In this document: positions 1,183 through 54,964 of the stretch, piece after piece
How positions within the stretch are numbered: position 1 is the first letter of the stretch
Layout: every line of letters starts with the position of its first letter
DNA from: Octopus vulgaris
Lineage: Eukaryota
NCBI GenBank assembly: GCA_951406725.2
Contig: OX597834.1
Span: forward strand, 4,650,001-4,714,000
DNA length: 64,000 nt
Direction: 5' to 3'
The notes under the pieces: model-generated
Databases searched by the model: none
What the model was told of the DNA's origin: nothing
Seen by the model: only the letters and a program-made list of their open reading frames with translations
Position numbers and translations under genes: made by a program

Positions 1183-2149
1183 GCGGCCAGCTGGCAGAAT
1201 CGTTAGCACACTGGGGGGGAAATGCGTAGCCGTATTTCGCCTGCCGTTACGTTCTGAGTTCAAATTCCGCCGAGGTCGACTTTGCCTTTCATCTTTTCGG
1301 GATCGATAAATTAAGTACCAGATACGCACTGGGGTCGATGTAATCGACTTAATCTGTGTGTCTGTCCTTGTTTGTCCCCTCTGTGTTTAGCCCCTTGTGG
1401 GTAGTAAAGAAATAGGTATTTCATCTGCCGTTACGTTCTGAGTTCAAATTCCGCCGAGATCGACTTTGCCTTTCATATTTTCGGGATCGATAAATTAAGT
1501 ACCAGATACGCACTGGGGTCGATGTAATCGACTTAATCTGTTTGTCTGTCCTTGTTTGTTCCCTCTGTGTTTAGCCCCTTGTGGGTAGTAAAGAAATAGG
1601 TATTTCATCTGCCGTTACGTTCTGAGTTCAAATTCCGCCGAGGTCGACCTTGCCTTTCATCTTCTCGGGATCGATTAAATTAAGTACCAGTTACGCACTG
1701 GGGTCGATGTAATCGACTTAAACCTGTTTGTCTGTTTTTGTTTGTCCCCTTCTGTGTTTAGCTCCTTGTGGGTAGTAAAGAAATAGGTATTTCATCTGCC
1801 GTTACGTTCTGAGTTCAAATTCCGCCGAGGTCGACTTTGCCTTTCATCTTTTCGGGATCGATAAATTAAGTACCAGATACGCACTGGGGTCGATGTAATC
1901 CACTTAATCTGTTTGTCTGTCCTTGTTTGTCCCCTCTGTGTTTAGCCCCTTGTGGGTAGTAAAGAAATAGGCATTTCATCTGCCGTTACGTTCTGAGCTC
2001 AAATTCCGCCGAGGTCGACCTTGCCTTTCATCTTCTCGGGGTCGATTAAATAAGTACCAGTTACGCACTGGGGTCGATGTAATCGACTTAAACCGTTTGT
2101 CTGTTCTTGTTTGTGCCTTCTGTGTTTAGCCCCTTGTGGGTAGTAAAGA
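1183..2149 (+). mobile_element. tRNA-derived SINE (family B) with its 3' ~184 bp amplified into 5 tandem units
   Basis: Head with A-box-like TGGCAGAATCG and B-box-like GAGTTCAAATTCC; GTTCTGAG recurs at 1251, 1435, 1619, 1806, 1990; flanked by direct repeat AATATATTACAAGTGATTAAT at 1162-1182 and 2150-2170. Confidence 0.88.
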
Positions 2150-2969
2150 AATATATTACAAGTGATTAATGCCGGCAGGATCGTCAGCACGCCGGCCAAA
2201 TTCGTCTACCTTTTGATTTTTCAAAGACTACCATTAAATACAATGTAAAAGTTCCAGGACTATAAATTTAGACAGTATCTTAGGATTAGTATACTAACAA
2301 TTATAACTATAAAGATTAGGTAATTCTTAGTAGATATCATATTAATATTAAAATATGAAATAAATGGTAAATATGGACATAAGGTTTTATTTACAGGTAA
2401 ATGTATCATATACAGGTTAAAAGGATTTTGATTTAAGCACGTATCTTAGGAATCTGTGATTAAGATATTTAAAAAAATAATTGGCAATCTTAAGTTAAAG
2501 ATACAACGTATTAATTCAATAAGGATTATAATTTTTTATTAATTTCATCAATTTTGGTTTGTTAACGTTAGTGCTTTCTTCAATTAAGCTCGCGTATATC
2601 TATCTGTTCACACTATTATGTAAGCAAATATATTGTGCACAAATATTGAAACACGCACATAGATACGTAATGAAAATATCACATATACGTAACTATGGTT
2701 TTTAAAATATATATTATAATAATAATAACGTATTATTTAACTATAATTTATAGAGTGCAACTGGGTGACTTACAATAAATTTCTTAAGTGATTAAATACT
2801 TTAATGACATTTCAATCTATCATAAGTAATAATGTATATTAGGAATAATGGTTTAAAGTAATCGTATTGAAATATCGTTTAAGCTAACTAATGGGTATTT
2901 TGTTTTTGTTTTCTCAGCACATTATACACGCACGCGCACAAATGCATTAAACAAGTTTACATTTACATA

Positions 2970-20304: not shown

Positions 20305-21157
20305 TGAGAGGGTACCCAAAAGTAATGCTCTCTGTTGCATAAGCCCGTTGTAGTTCAGGCTTCCACAGCTAGAAGCCACTTGATGCAACCCTCAGGCATC
20401 AGTACGTGGTGCCTCTATGTGTTGTAGTGCTTCTCCGCTGTTCGTCGATTTTTGCGATGGCTTAAACGAAGGAACAGCCTGCTTCCGTGAAATTCTGTTT
20501 GCAGCTGGGGAAAGCGGTCACCGAAACAGTTGTCATGCTTCAAACAGATTACAAAGAAGCTCCCATGAACAAAATCGGCGCTTCTGAGTGGTTTCCAGGC
20601 TTTGGGAACGATCATTTATCGCTTGAAGACCAACCTCGTTCAGGACGACCGTCGACCCCCCGAACGAGTGAAAACATCATTAAGATTCATGAACTAATCT
20701 TCAAGGATCGTCACCGAAAAATTGATGAACTTGCTGACATGACAGGTGTGTCCTTGAGCTCCTGCCAAGGAATTTCGTGTGAGGAATTGCGAATGAAAAG
20801 AGTTGTAGCAAAATTTGTGCCTCGCTTGCTCACAGAAGATAAAAAGCAGTTACAACTGTATGCATATCGTGAACTGAAAGAACAGTTGGAAGTTGATCCG
20901 GACCTTTCGTCTAAGGTCATCACTGGTGATGGAAATTTGTGCTACGGAATTTGCAGATGTGGAAGAGGTGAAGAAAAACACAACGGAGATGTTAAAAGGC
21001 AAGAGTTCCAGGACTGCTTGGAATTGTGGAAAACGCGCCGGGACAGATGTATTGCTTCAAATTGCGGATATTTTGACGGCGATGACAGTGTAAACATGGA
21101 AATCTAAGGGAATAAAATGATGTTGCAAAATTTCGGTTTCTGTTGGGCCCACCCTCG
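20305..21157 (+). mobile_element. Internally deleted mariner-like element
   Basis: TA-flanked degenerate TIRs (TGAGAGGGTACCCAAAA versus reverse complement CGAGGGTGGGCCCAACA); transposase fragment inside. Confidence 0.8.
20487..21107 (+). pseudogene. Mariner transposase fragment (HTH domains, first catalytic D motif, most of the catalytic domain deleted)
   Basis: KFCLQLGK..TET; LEDQPRSGRPST; AKFVPRLLT (WVPxxL-like); KVITGD; then jumps to W..R..RCI...G.YF.GD. Confidence 0.85.
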
Positions 21158-21199: not shown

Positions 21200-21390
21200 T
21201 TCTTATATTTGCTTCAGTCATTCGACTGCGACCATGCTGAAGCACAGCCTTTAGTCGAACAATTCGACTCCAGGACTTATTCTTTGTAAGCTTATTCTAT
21301 CGGTCCTTTTGCCGAACCGCTAGTTTACGGGGACGTAAACACACCAACATCGGTTGTCAAGCGATAGTGGCGAGACAAACACAGACAACA

Positions 21391-21487
<97 letters not shown>

Positions 21488-21536
21488 TACAACGGCGGTG
21501 CATCAGCATGGCCGCAGCTCTGAGCTGAAACTATTA

Positions 21537-21585
<49 letters not shown>

Positions 21586-21725
21586 GACGGGCATCTTACA
21601 GTTTCCGTCTACTAAATCCACTCACAAGGCTTTGGTTGGCTCATGGCTATAGTAGAAGACACTTGCCCAAGGTTTTACGCATGTGGTTGGTAATCATGCT
21701 TCTTACCACACAACCACGCCTGCGC
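21200..21725 (-). mobile_element. SINE family A with an opposite-orientation SINE tail fragment (21487-21540) in its TA tract
   Basis: Family A similarity; insert GGCGGTGCATCAGCATGGCCGCAG...CTGAAAC. Confidence 0.8.
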
Positions 21726-22034
21726 TATATATATATATATATATATATTTCAACAATTGAGGGTAAAATTAATTAATTATTAATCAATTTCACCAAGTGT
21801 TCAGTATGCAAAGGGACCATTTAAGGCGAATTCAAATTATTACATTATATAAAAGGGCTTAGTAAAATAAATTACTTTGCCGCATACTGAACTCATTAGA
21901 AATAGCAGCTAAAAAACTTTTTTAAAGCTATTTCTAATACTTAAAGAAAATCTCTCTCATATATAGTGTTTGCTTAATTCAACTCACAAAAGTTTGGGGG
22001 TAAGGACATCAACAAATCAAATGCTAAGGTTATT

Positions 22035-22086
22035 TGAGAACGTACGTTTCAAGATTAGTCAAAACAACACTTCTATCATCAGCTCA
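22035..22086 (-). ncRNA. Minimal type I hammerhead motif, unit 1
   Basis: Reverse complement of 23396-23447. Confidence 0.7.
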
Positions 22087-22579
22087 GAAACTCCTTGGTT
22101 TGGATTTGGAAACACTGAAAGTAAGAACATACCCTTTCGAAGATCTGCTCGCAACTAACAGTGCCAACGAACCCAAATAAGCAAGCGAAGAATTTCTGTT
22201 CTCCCCTTTCCACCAGCGTGGGTTAAAATCATCAAACACTATGCTTATTTCGGTAAAATCCGAAGCATTAATTAGAGGGAGATTAATTATAATTTCAACA
22301 ATTGAGGGTAAAATTAATTAATTATTAATCAATTTCACCAAGTGTTCAGTATGCAAAGGGACCATTTAAGGCGAATTCAAATTATTACATTATATAAAAG
22401 GGCTTAGTAAAATAAATTACTTTGCCGCATACTGAACTCATTAGAAATAGCAGCTAAAAAACTTTTTTAAAGCTATTTCTAATACTTAAAGAAAATCTCT
22501 CTCATATATAGTGTTTGCTTAATTCAACTCACAAAAGTTTGGGGGTAAGGACATCAACAAATCAAATGCTAAGGTTATT

Positions 22580-22631
22580 TGAGAACGTACGTTTCAAGAT
22601 TAGTCAAAACAACACTTCTATCATCAGCTCA
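22580..22631 (-). ncRNA. Minimal type I hammerhead motif, unit 2
   Basis: Reverse complement of 23396-23447. Confidence 0.7.
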
Positions 22632-23395
22632 GAAACTCCTTGGTTTGGATTTGGAAACACTGAAAGTAAGAACATACCCTTTCGAAGATCTGCTCGCAAC
22701 TAACAGTGCCAACGAACCCAAATAAGCAAGCGAAGAATTTCTGTTCTCCCCTTTCCACCAGCGTGGGTTAAAATCATCAAACACTATGCTTATTTCGGTA
22801 AAATCCGAAGCATTAATTAGAGGGAGATTAATTATAATTTCAACAATTGAGGGTAAAATTAATTAATTATTAATCAATTTCACCAAGTGTTCAGTATGCA
22901 AAGGGACCATTTAAGGCGAATTCAAATTATTACATTATATAAAAGGGCTTAGTAAAATAAATTACTTTGCCGCATACTGAACTCATTAGAAATAGCAGCT
23001 AAAAAACTTTTTTAAAGCTATTTCTAATACTTAAAGAAAATCTCTCTCATATATAGTGTTTGCTTAATTCAACTCACAAATGTAATATATAATGTAATAA
23101 TTTGAATTCGCCTTAAATGGTCCCTTTGCATACTGAACACTTGGTGAAATTGATTAATAATTAATTAATTTTACCCTCAATTGTTGAAATTATAATTAAT
23201 CTCCCTCTAATTAATGCTTCGGATTTTACCGAAATAAGCATAGTGTTTGATGATTTTAACCCACGCTGGTGGAAAGGGGAGAACAGAAATTCTTCGCTTG
23301 CTTATTTGGGTTCGTTGGCACTGTTAGTTGCGAGCAGATCTTCGAAAGGGTATGTTCTTACTTTCAGTGTTTCCAAATCCAAACCAAGGAGTTTC

Positions 23396-23447
23396 TGAGC
23401 TGATGATAGAAGTGTTGTTTTGACTAATCTTGAAACGTACGTTCTCA
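23396..23447 (+). ncRNA. Minimal type I hammerhead motif, inverted unit
   Basis: TGAG-CTGATGA-(TAGA..TCTT)-GAAAC-GTAC-GTT-CTCA; helix I TGAG/CTCA; palindromic AACGTACGTT helix III; helix II weak. Confidence 0.7.
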
Positions 23448-23644
23448 AATAACCTTAGCATTTGATTTGTTGATGTCCTTACCCCCAAACTTTTGTGAGT
23501 TGAATTAAGCAAACACTATATATGAGAGAGATTTTCTTTAAGTATTAGAAATAGCTTTAAAAAAGTTTTTTAGCTGCTATTTCTAATGAGTTCAGTATGC
23601 GGCAAAGTAATTTATTTTACTAAGCCCTTTTATATAATGTAATA

Positions 23645-23680
<36 letters not shown>

Positions 23681-23920: not shown

Positions 23921-24329
23921 TACTCTCCCTTTTACTCTTTTACTTGTTTCTGTCATTTGACTGCGGCCATGCTGGAGCACCGCCTTTAGTCGAGAAAATC
24001 GACCCCGGGACTTATTCTTTGTAAGCCTAATACTTATTCTATCGGTCTCTTTTACCGAACCTCTAGGTGACGGGGACGTAAACACACCAGCATCGGTTGT
24101 CAAGCAATGCTAGGGAGACAAACACAGACACACATACATACATATATATATATATATACATATATATATACGACAGGCTTCTTTCAGTTTCCGTCTACCA
24201 AATCCACTCACAAGGCATTCGTCGGCCCGAGGCTATAGTAGAAGACACTTGCCCAAGGTGCCACGCAGTGGGACTGAACCCGGAACCATGTGGTTGGTTA
24301 GCAAGCTACTTACCACACAGCCACTCCTG
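23921..24329 (-). mobile_element. SINE family A
   Basis: Same structure as 2970-3415. Confidence 0.92.
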
Positions 24330-25499
24330 TATATATATATATATATATATATACATATGAATACATATACTCATTATATATACATATAAACGTGAAGACG
24401 TAGCGCTATATGGAGAAAACACCGTTTCCGACATGAATGACTGAGTCAATTGTAAAGTTTCACAAGAGCTGAAAAACTTAGTAAAACTTGTTCCGAGTTC
24501 ATGACATACAAATAAACTTTTGGAGGGATATAATTGCTTTCCGTATGTCAGTGAGAATCAGTTGGCACATAATCAATAAGCATTCAAATCTGATTAGGGA
24601 TTGTCACTTTTGAAAATCGATATAATCCGTTGGATTAATCGATTGACATTTTATGAAAACAATAAAGAAAACAACAAACATTAATAACGACTGAATATCA
24701 CTCAAGGGTGAATCTTGAAAATGTAAATTGTTTTAATTGTTATAATTGCTACTGCCACGAATCCAGGCGAATAACAGGTTTTAATTTTAGTAACATAGAG
24801 AAAATAAGACGAAATTATTAACATAGAACTCTAAGACGATGCAACTAAAGTATAAGCGAATAACTTTTTATGATGTACTGGTGCATAGACCGGGACTAAA
24901 ATGTAGTTAAACGGAATTTTTTAAGAAAAGGAAGAGTTTATATGATATAAAGACGTTTTCTTTAAAGAAGCCATGGAAACAATAAAGTTTTCATAGTGTC
25001 TGCACAAAGCTGATATAAATACCAGACGAAGGAGCAAACTGAAACAATGGTAGGCAAGTGGTGTGAGTTTGTTGTCTGTGAAGCCAACCACCAGAAACAG
25101 AGCAGTTCATCTTGGGAGATGCCGTACAATATCCTTTGAATAATCCCACTTATATCGTTAGACTTGTCGAAAACCTGCTTTCCAGATATTTACATGAATT
25201 CTTATGTAGGCATGCAGTGTCAATGCGAGTCACTAACAATTGTGCGAGCTTTTACAAAATCTGGAGCGTTTTCGAGGAGGTTTGTTGTACACGGAAATCA
25301 TAATGATTCAAAACATAACTACTTGTTTTATTCAATTTATATCACTCAGGACTAACGTTTATCACTCAGGACTAACGTTTAAATTATCTTGATAAACGGC
25401 CAATCAAGCGATTCAGCATATTACATCGATACTGAATAGTGAAAATCCCGTCTGTGATTAGCTTCTTATAAATGTTTCTAGCACAATCGGGTGAAATGT

Positions 25500-54630: not shown

Positions 54631-54964
54631 AGGCGCAGGAGTGGCTGTGTGGTAAGTAGCTTGCTTACCAACCACATAGTTCCGGGTTCAGTCTAACTGC
54701 GTGGCACCTTGGGCAAATGTCTTCTACTATAGTCTCGGGCCGACCAAAGCCTTGTGAGTGGATTTGGTAGACGGAAACTGAAAGAAGTCCATGGTATATA
54801 TGTATATATATATGTATATATATAGTTATCAGTAATAATATAGGGTGAAATTAATTAATTTGGAATAATCATTAATTTCACCAAGTAGATTTCGGCATGT
54901 AAAAGCCTCATTCGAGGAAAGTTTAAGTAATACTAAGTATTAGGTTTAGCTATCTATCTATCTT

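What the first reader, a model, noticed from the sequence alone, without database searches (positions are those of the whole stretch)
21748..23648. 545-bp hammerhead unit in tandem plus an inverted, circularly permuted monomer
Seen: 2.45 apparently identical direct copies, a short junction near 23081, then an inverted block that starts mid-unit, crosses the unit boundary and ends just over one period later (AATGTAATAA at 23091 and 23636). Each full unit has one hammerhead with palindromic AACGTACGTT. Inference: a multimeric transcript would self-cleave into 545-nt monomers able to circularise, and the permuted copy fits reverse transcription of a circular or multimeric RNA, as in retrozymes. 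Copy identity implies a very recent event or an assembly artefact.
Basis: partly seen in the sequence, partly recalled or inferred. Interest (0 to 1): 0.88.

Follow-up and report, generated by a model that had tools for sequence, protein, structure and literature searches.

The report
Hammerhead retrozyme with Penelope-type insertion
This is a young copy of a non-coding, ribozyme-carrying jumping element that lands in TA repeats as two back-to-back arms, nearly always one ending at each of two fixed points, which suggests how Penelope-like retrotransposon enzymes copy such RNAs into the genome.

Summary
The structure is as described: 2.45 identical 545-bp units (21748-23080, RNA sense on minus), a 5-bp insert, and a 563-bp identical inverted arm (23086-23648), between (TA)n tracts. 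It is one copy of a non-coding family with at least 832 ends in this 2.8-Gb animal genome. The hammerhead core is conserved but atypical, and cleavage is untested. The 'permuted monomer' is not a random circle start. Its outer end is a second fixed family end (B), about 95 nt upstream of the first (A), and the one-unit length looks like chance. Of 94 head-to-head loci, 87 pair A with B, 1 is A/A, none B/B. This is the known Penelope-like (PLE) inverted copy with a one-sided tail, also seen here in two RT/GIY-YIG-coding PLE families, but with a longer tail. Not found in print: the near-strict one-of-each rule, both arms sharing one haplotype (0.5% versus 5.5%), and 27 of 87 arm pairs not nested. 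These favour twin priming on one, possibly circular, RNA. No sequence-related autonomous partner was found. The scan noted similar PLE-type insertions in other genomes.

The parts
21726..21747 (.). (TA)11 target tract, left
   Evidence: sequence
21748..23080 (-). Arm A: 2.45 identical 545-bp units; RNA-sense 3' end (site A) at 21748 joined to (TA)n, 5' end at unit phase about 303
21748..21845 (-). One-sided tail: the about 95-100 nt between site B and site A, with a terminal hairpin at 21762-21794
22035..22086 (-). Type I hammerhead-type motif, predicted cut between 22039 and 22038 (GUU then C)
   Evidence: motif reading; activity untested
22580..22631 (-). Second hammerhead-type motif, 545 nt from the first; predicted cut between 22584 and 22583
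23081..23085 (.). 5-nt junction insert (TGTAA) that repeats sequence near the start of arm B
   Evidence: templated origin inferred
23086..23648 (+). Arm B: 563-bp inverted arm, identical to arm A; RNA-sense 3' end (site B, phase 459) at 23648 joined to (TA)n
23396..23447 (+). Third hammerhead-type motif, predicted cut between 23443 and 23444
23544..23587 (+). Long hairpin upstream of site B (copies at 21895-21938, 22440-22483, 22985-23028)
23649..23678 (.). (TA)15 target tract, right

Best explanation
A very young insertion of a non-autonomous Penelope-like element, i.e. an animal non-LTR retrozyme: a 545-nt non-coding, structured unit with one type I hammerhead-type motif, moved in trans by an endonuclease-bearing PLE. 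Shown from sequence: family size, (TA)n targeting, two fixed 3' ends about 95 nt apart, one of each per two-armed insertion, both arms of one haplotype, and arms that run through the hammerhead site without a scar and often exceed one unit. Inferred: the PLE protein, probably as a dimer, nicks both strands of a (TA)n tract; one target end primes reverse transcription at site A and the other at site B of the same RNA (twin priming); each cDNA stops at a variable point; the two are joined by microhomology or short templated inserts, giving head-to-head arms with a tail on one side. Further inferred (about 55%): multi-unit arms come from repeated copying of one monomer, most simply a circle made by dimeric hammerhead cleavage and ligation. 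Confidence in the identity is about 0.9; the figure below is for identity plus twin priming on one template.
For: Family: 832 exact A-end and 555 exact B-end junctions with (TA)n, 0 in controls; 2307 cores. Pairing: 87 A/B, 1 A/A, 0 B/B and 6 other among 94 head-to-head loci of 129 examined; A-anchored 42 A/B against 1 A/A, B-anchored 23 A/B against 0 B/B; in 49 loci not chosen by their ends 27 A/B, 0 A/A, 0 B/B. One template: own arm A versus own arm B differ by 0.48% on average against 5.5% for other loci's arms; own partner best or tied in 47 of 57, strictly best in 37. Not simple fold-back: 27 of 87 pairs cannot be nested in either direction. Monomer bottleneck: 720 variant sites fixed in all copies of a locus against 170 variable within a locus, mostly single-copy, in 52 loci; 49 of 82 cut-to-cut units equal their locus mode, with 20 distinct modes in 22 loci; 36 of 87 A arms and 34 B arms exceed 560 bp. 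Hammerhead: the 11 core positions are nearly invariant over about 90 loci while position 7 (T71/A11/C8) and 17 (T90/A2) vary; random site sets are as conserved in 0.02% of draws; 12 stem pairs hold in 23 of 23 variants. Two RT/GIY-YIG-coding PLE families in the same genome show the same head-to-head form with a one-sided tail in (TA)n (L192, L195). In vitro, a PLE protein nicks and extends both strands, starts at two internal RNA sites that bound the tail, and is predicted to be a dimer (PMC11167929).
Against: No autonomous element with related ends: 40 GIY-YIG loci gave no hit in PLE termini, only neighbouring short relatives. 60 of 87 pairs are nestable, and 20 of 87 have inner ends within 10 nt of the same phase (permutation mean 4.5, max 14 of 5000), as fold-back also predicts; central deletions could un-nest the rest. 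Arm lengths correlate (rho 0.53, n=87; 0.16 in the 25 youngest), which suits a finite linear template better than a circle. 35 of 129 loci were scored single-armed or complex. One true A/A locus (L097). The in-vitro study saw no difference in start site between strands, and hammerhead cleavage was not needed. The motif is atypical (U-U or A-A mismatch at the base of stem II, U at position 17); the active monomer fold is +0.2 kcal/mol against -6.6 for the best local fold; no two-sided compensatory change; no Rfam match. Same-haplotype arms could also reflect a low-diversity RNA pool or later conversion.
Confidence: 0.62

Rival explanations
1. Same element, but the second arm is made by fold-back: the first strand self-primes at a palindrome and is copied back, the endonuclease resolves it at the other site, and later deletions at the centre blur the symmetry (the self-priming reading of PMC3846280).
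For: 20 of 87 pairs are symmetric at the inner end, 18 of them with arm A about 90-100 nt longer than arm B; L113 and L121 have palindromic centres; 60 of 87 pairs nestable; it predicts shared haplotype and one tail equally well.
Against: 27 of 87 pairs (7 of the 25 youngest) are not nestable; B is the longer arm in 31 of 87, so either arm would have to be primary; the purified PLE protein extends both target strands directly.
Confidence: 0.27
2. No circle: the template is an uncleaved linear multimer read from long source arrays that are kept uniform by local recombination; the hammerhead does something else or acts only with protein.
For: Uncleaved RNA is the main substrate in vitro; arm lengths correlate; long arrays exist (L068, L133, L202); L068 has a period-4 variant pattern and L038 a repeated 937-bp super-unit, so block duplication happens; only 1 of 9 predicted frog retrozyme dimers cleaved.
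Against: 20 distinct uniform monomers in 22 loci and within-locus differences mostly single-copy need a monomer bottleneck at or near each insertion; the catalytic core is conserved across subfamilies about 18% apart; arrays would shorten each round without regeneration (inference).
Confidence: 0.4
3. One reading: the inverted block is a circularly permuted monomer from a random start on a circle, inserted beside a tandem array.
For: The block is 1.03 units long and crosses the unit boundary.
Against: Its outer end is a fixed family end with 555 exact copies; B arms run from under 50 bp to several kb; no excess of inner ends at that phase; the two arms share window-specific variants, so they are one event.
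Confidence: 0.03
4. The array or its inversion is an assembly artefact.
For: All 3.5 copies are identical; the window's own junction was not seen bridged in four contig sets; one long array (L202) lies between two N gaps and may be collapsed.
Against: The same rule holds at 87 loci with different inner junctions and haplotypes; head-to-head joints of other copies stand in contigs of two public runs (3 in X2, 1 in X1); a sister locus has the same haplotype (L053); the window junction carries a 5-nt insert.
Confidence: 0.03

Closest known systems
Animal non-LTR retrozymes (Cervera and de la Pena 2020, PMC7229834; Li, Clavereau and Pollet 2026, bioRxiv 10.64898/2026.07.22.740005)
   Same: Non-coding tandem units, one type I hammerhead per unit, low GC, dispersed dimers to multimers, proposed PLE dependence; 545 bp lies within the 51-972 bp range of Li et al.
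   Different: The hammerhead is closer to the PLE minimal type than to the canonical retrozyme type; no circRNA or cleavage data here; the parts of those papers that I read do not describe head-to-head arms, fixed ends or (TA)n targeting ('inverted' and 'microsatellite' have 0 hits in PMC7229834).
EN+ Penelope-like element insertions with inverted 5'-truncated copy and one-sided tail (Craig et al. 2021, PMC8557442; Arkhipova et al. 2013, PMC3846280)
   Same: Head-to-head arms, partial tandems, tail at one end, microsatellite (TA)n bias, microhomology joints, hammerhead in the repeat.
   Different: No RT-GIY-YIG ORF; tail about 95-100 nt instead of 30-40 nt; arms are pure multimers of the repeat.
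Poseidon PAc of the green anole, in vitro (Frangieh et al. 2024, PMC11167929)
   Same: Two internal reverse-transcription start sites that bound the tail; both target strands nicked and extended; AT-rich targets.
   Different: There no strand difference in start site was seen; here the genomic record shows a near-strict one-of-each use and one haplotype per insertion.
Neptune-type PLE families of this same genome (L192-L195, L201)
   Same: Head-to-head arms in (TA)n with a tail on one arm (38 nt in L192, about 28 nt in L195); minimal hammerhead with palindromic stem III; a family with 781-codon open frames.
   Different: No sequence similarity to the 545-bp unit; U3-A8 core variant in the 781-codon family; partner status unproven. 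The clade label rests on the CxxxxCxxC linker read against PMC8557442, no tree was built.

Membership tests
Animal non-LTR retrozyme | Tandem units of a few hundred bp, each with a type I hammerhead motif | tested here: met
   (motif and conservation; no Rfam hit)
Animal non-LTR retrozyme | No protein-coding capacity, GC below 50% | tested here: met
   longest stop-free stretch 77 codons, GC 33%; sense-strand frames read
Animal non-LTR retrozyme | Dispersed insertions of dimers to multimers | tested here: met
Animal non-LTR retrozyme | Canonical hammerhead geometry with loop 1-loop 2 contacts | tested here: inconclusive
   4-bp stem I, mismatch at the base of an interrupted stem II, 2-bp stem III with palindromic loop; tertiary contacts not assessed
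Animal non-LTR retrozyme | Self-cleavage of the transcript | not testable with these tools
   needs in vitro transcription
Animal non-LTR retrozyme | Monomer-length circular RNA in vivo | not testable with these tools
   only contigs were available; indirect genomic support
EN+ Penelope-like element | ORF with RT and GIY-YIG endonuclease | tested here: not met
   none in the unit and no arm was seen to continue into one in the alignment tables; so not an autonomous PLE
Non-autonomous PLE derivative | Inverted 5'-truncated copy, head-to-head | tested here: met
   94 of 129 loci
Non-autonomous PLE derivative | Tail on one end only | tested here: met
   87 of 94 head-to-head loci; length about 95-100 nt, not 30-40
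Non-autonomous PLE derivative | Insertion bias for microsatellites | tested here: met
   43 of 44 terminal A motifs and 33 of 34 terminal B motifs join TA runs in 49 loci not chosen by their ends
Non-autonomous PLE derivative | Sequence homology to the pseudo-LTR of an autonomous PLE | tested here: inconclusive
   none among 40 GIY-YIG loci; only 150 of 6136 candidates were scored and other clades may be missed
Non-autonomous PLE derivative | Mobilised by PLE protein in trans | not testable with these tools
   inferred from shared insertion anatomy

The most novel reading that the evidence does not exclude
Each insertion records one hammerhead-made RNA circle being copied at once by the two subunits of a PLE dimer, each primed by one target strand at its own dedicated site (A or B), both rolling past the ribozyme junction. 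This asymmetric twin-primed rolling-circle route would explain the PLE inverted arm, the one-sided tail and retrozyme multimers together, and would tie animal retrozymes to PLE enzymes by mechanism rather than by co-occurrence.
Probability: 0.3. Interest if true: 0.78.

Novelty: new variant of a known kind. Interest (0 to 1): 0.52.

Why it matters
How PLEs build their tandem and inverted insertions and the one-sided tail is named as an open problem (PMC8557442), and what moves animal retrozymes has been argued from co-occurrence and sequence likeness (PMC7229834; bioRxiv 10.64898/2026.07.22.740005). This young family of roughly a thousand insertions (estimate from 832 and 555 exact ends) gives countable rules: one end of each kind, one haplotype per insertion, a third of arm pairs non-nested. 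Any model must meet them, and an existing in vitro PLE assay (PMC11167929) can test them with a 545-nt RNA. The element type itself is not new.

Tried and rejected
Rfam: nothing at gathering score in the window; at E<=10 only TA-repeat and hairpin noise, no hammerhead. Folding 23385-23460 alone does not give the hammerhead fold (z 0.84); the whole unit is well structured (z -6.3). Tandem Repeats Finder misses the array because its period limit is 500. Coding remnant of a PLE ORF in the unit: none recognised. Pile-up of inner ends at the predicted cut, expected if cleaved linear monomers were templates: not seen (6 of 188 within phases 250-260, about 4 expected). Classical L1-type twin priming, where the sense arm begins at the internal priming site: rejected, inner ends are not concentrated at site B. 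Autonomous partner: 30 GIY-YIG loci and 10 further ones show no related termini. Expression: no RNA holder listed on record; two runs guessed to be RNA have contigs over 27 of 30 bins of 23040-23650 at low depth, which shows neither strand, level nor circles and is not used as evidence. The window's own junction was not seen bridged in the four contig sets; this proves nothing. A link between a dead ribozyme core and a higher-order period (L068) gave no clean prediction and was left. One search used a mis-registered structure (redone) and the A-end count was faulty (redone); neither is used. Earlier findings by sequence and by place: none.

Full report
Observation. The array is exact. Positions 21748-23080 hold 2.45 identical 545-bp units, 23081-23085 a 5-nt insert, and 23086-23648 a 563-bp inverted arm identical to the array. 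Both outer ends abut (TA)n tracts. The hammerhead-bearing strand is minus in the array and plus in the inverted arm, so the arms meet head-to-head and both RNA 3' ends point outwards. Phases below count along the sense unit with phase 545 at window 21748.

The ribozyme. Each unit reads as a type I hammerhead: 4-bp stem I, CUGAUGA, an interrupted stem II with a mismatch at its base, GAAA, a 2-bp stem III with a palindromic loop, and GUU before the predicted cut (phase 254/255). Rfam does not call it and the local minimum-energy fold is another structure. The support is conservation. Over about 90 locus consensuses the 11 core positions show one deviation, while position 7 and position 17, which are free in hammerheads (established knowledge), do vary; random sets of 11 sites are as conserved in 0.02% of draws. 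The 12 stem pairs hold in 23 of 23 variants, with one-sided changes at two pairs and no two-sided change (these 23 of 33 variants were picked by a pattern that requires the core, so they say nothing about the core itself). The 8-nt palindrome forms a -9.8 kcal/mol duplex, as dimeric hammerheads need (PMC4209133, main text read). Activity is untested.

The family. The window lies in a 2.8-Gb, 227-contig genome; from recall the flanking repeats look like cephalopod SINEs, which I did not test. A DNA search gave 1306 candidates, of which 40 were scored. Exact patterns count 832 junctions of one end (site A, phase about 545) with TA runs, 555 of a second end (site B, phase 447-459), and 2307 hammerhead cores, against 0, 0 and 3 in reversed controls. 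Twenty public runs in 10 studies under four organism codes hold the unit. I examined 38 top-scoring loci (L056 and L058 dropped as duplicates of L057, the window added), 60 of the first 61 A-ends on contig 1 (one already held), the 32 of 51 B-ends on contig 1 not already covered, and 12 loci picked by their hammerheads. Identities to the window unit run from about 82% to 100%.

The pairing rule. Of 129 loci, 94 are head-to-head: 87 A/B, 1 A/A (L097), 0 B/B, 6 other. Of those six, L066 proved A/B once extended, L111 was cut by the fetch edge, and four have a non-standard second end. If each arm chose its site freely and evenly, half the partners of an anchored end would be of its own class; 1 of 43 and 0 of 23 were. 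In 49 loci not chosen by their ends a motif count gave 27 A/B, 0 A/A, 0 B/B. The other 35 loci were scored single-armed or complex (25 A, 10 B); some have a very short second arm (L035). The window's 'permuted monomer' is therefore a B arm whose inner end happens to fall near its outer phase; inner ends show no excess there.

One template. In the 57 of 87 pairs with at least 150 shared sites, the two arms differ by 0.48% on average, against 5.5% for arms of other loci; the own partner is best or tied in 47 and strictly best in 37. Within loci, 720 variant sites are fixed in all copies and 170 vary, mostly in one copy (52 loci). Cut-to-cut units equal their locus mode in 49 of 82 cases, with 20 distinct modes among 22 loci. 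54 A arms and 52 B arms of 87 are long enough to cross the predicted cut, and 36 and 34 exceed 560 bp. This points to a single monomer sequence copied repeatedly per insertion, which a circle explains most simply. Against it: arm lengths correlate (rho 0.53; 0.16 in the 25 youngest), L068 and L038 show higher-order blocks, and uniform source arrays could mimic the pattern.

Twin priming or fold-back. Fold-back needs one arm to be nested in the other. 51 pairs allow B in A, 9 allow A in B, and 27 of 87 allow neither at 25-nt tolerance. Yet 20 of 87 have inner ends within 10 nt of the same phase (permutation mean 4.5; three of them at phase 154 sit at an alignment break in older subfamilies), and central deletions could un-nest pairs afterwards. 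Junctions show overlap in 47, an unaligned gap in 31 and a blunt join in 4 of 82 simple cases, which fits end-joining under both models. I favour twin priming about two to one because a purified PLE protein nicks and extends both strands and starts at two internal sites that bound the tail (PMC11167929, main text read).

The likely driver. A GIY-YIG search of the genome shows a family with many 781-codon open frames, carrying RT-like and GIY-YIG domains (the RT score is just under the Pfam cut-off) and a CxxxxCxxC linker, the mark of Neptune/Nematis-type PLEs (PMC8557442, passages). L192 of this family and L195 of another are head-to-head in (TA)n with a tail on one arm only, 38 and about 28 nt. 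Their termini do not resemble the 545-bp unit, so the partner is not identified.

Artefact check. The rule holds across many loci with different junctions. Contigs of two public runs carry head-to-head joints of other copies; the window's own joint was not seen bridged. L053 has the window's haplotype, the next loci differ at 3 sites, so the insertion is very young.

What is known. Inverted 5'-truncated copies, a 30-40-bp tail often at one end and (TA)n bias are described for PLEs (PMC8557442 passages; PMC3846280 passages, which proposes self-priming). Circular templates were proposed for PLE tandems (PMC4209133). Animal retrozymes make circles and are suspected PLE parasites (PMC7229834, passages and Discussion; bioRxiv 10.64898/2026.07.22.740005, parts 1-3 of 5; supplements not seen). 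Seven searches showed no paper that reports this family, a tail near 95 nt, or the one-of-each and one-haplotype rules; the library lacks most subscription papers and Repbase entries. Unchecked notes of this scan describe comparable PLE-type insertions in other genomes.

Verdict. It works like a PLE-mobilised retrozyme and meets every tested feature of a non-autonomous PLE derivative except a proven partner. New variant of a known kind; interest 0.52, carried by the mechanistic rules and not by the element type.

Noticed in passing
window 54826-54905: Short fragment of a related family (79% over 53 bp to the site-A hairpin) beside a TA run; similar relatives, about 70% alike over the last 200 nt and often head-to-head, at L169 2505-2780, L188 290-560, L196 3750-4050 and L151. 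Several non-autonomous families seem to share this end structure.
   Followed up: partly
L068 2026-6534 (G000:C3, 21.72 Mb): 8.3-unit arm with a period-4 variant pattern; half of its hammerhead cores carry a change at core position 8. Either a copied tetramer or a local block duplication.
   Followed up: partly
L038 2500-5198: A 937-bp super-unit (junction phase 530 to 139) repeated about 2.9 times; may record an aberrant circle or template jump.
   Followed up: no
L192, L193, L194, L201: Neptune-type PLE family with 781-codon open frames, a U3-A8 hammerhead variant about 75 nt before the end, and a 38-nt tail with a small hairpin; looks recently active.
   Followed up: partly
L202 154-7106: Eleven identical 546-nt units between two N gaps; long arrays of this family may be unresolved or collapsed in the assembly.
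   Followed up: no
L053 2509-3167: Same haplotype as the window, but its inverted arm ends at phase 40 in non-TA sequence; possible sister, source or daughter copy.
   Followed up: partly
window 20500-21100: Reads from recall like a decayed mariner-type transposase fragment; one frame gave no Pfam hit.
   Followed up: partly
window 21200-21725 and 23930-24330: SINE-like repeats flank the insertion; the target (TA)n is the run at the end of one of them (label from recall).
   Followed up: no
window 1232-2153: Five tandem copies of a 184-bp SINE-like unit.
   Followed up: no
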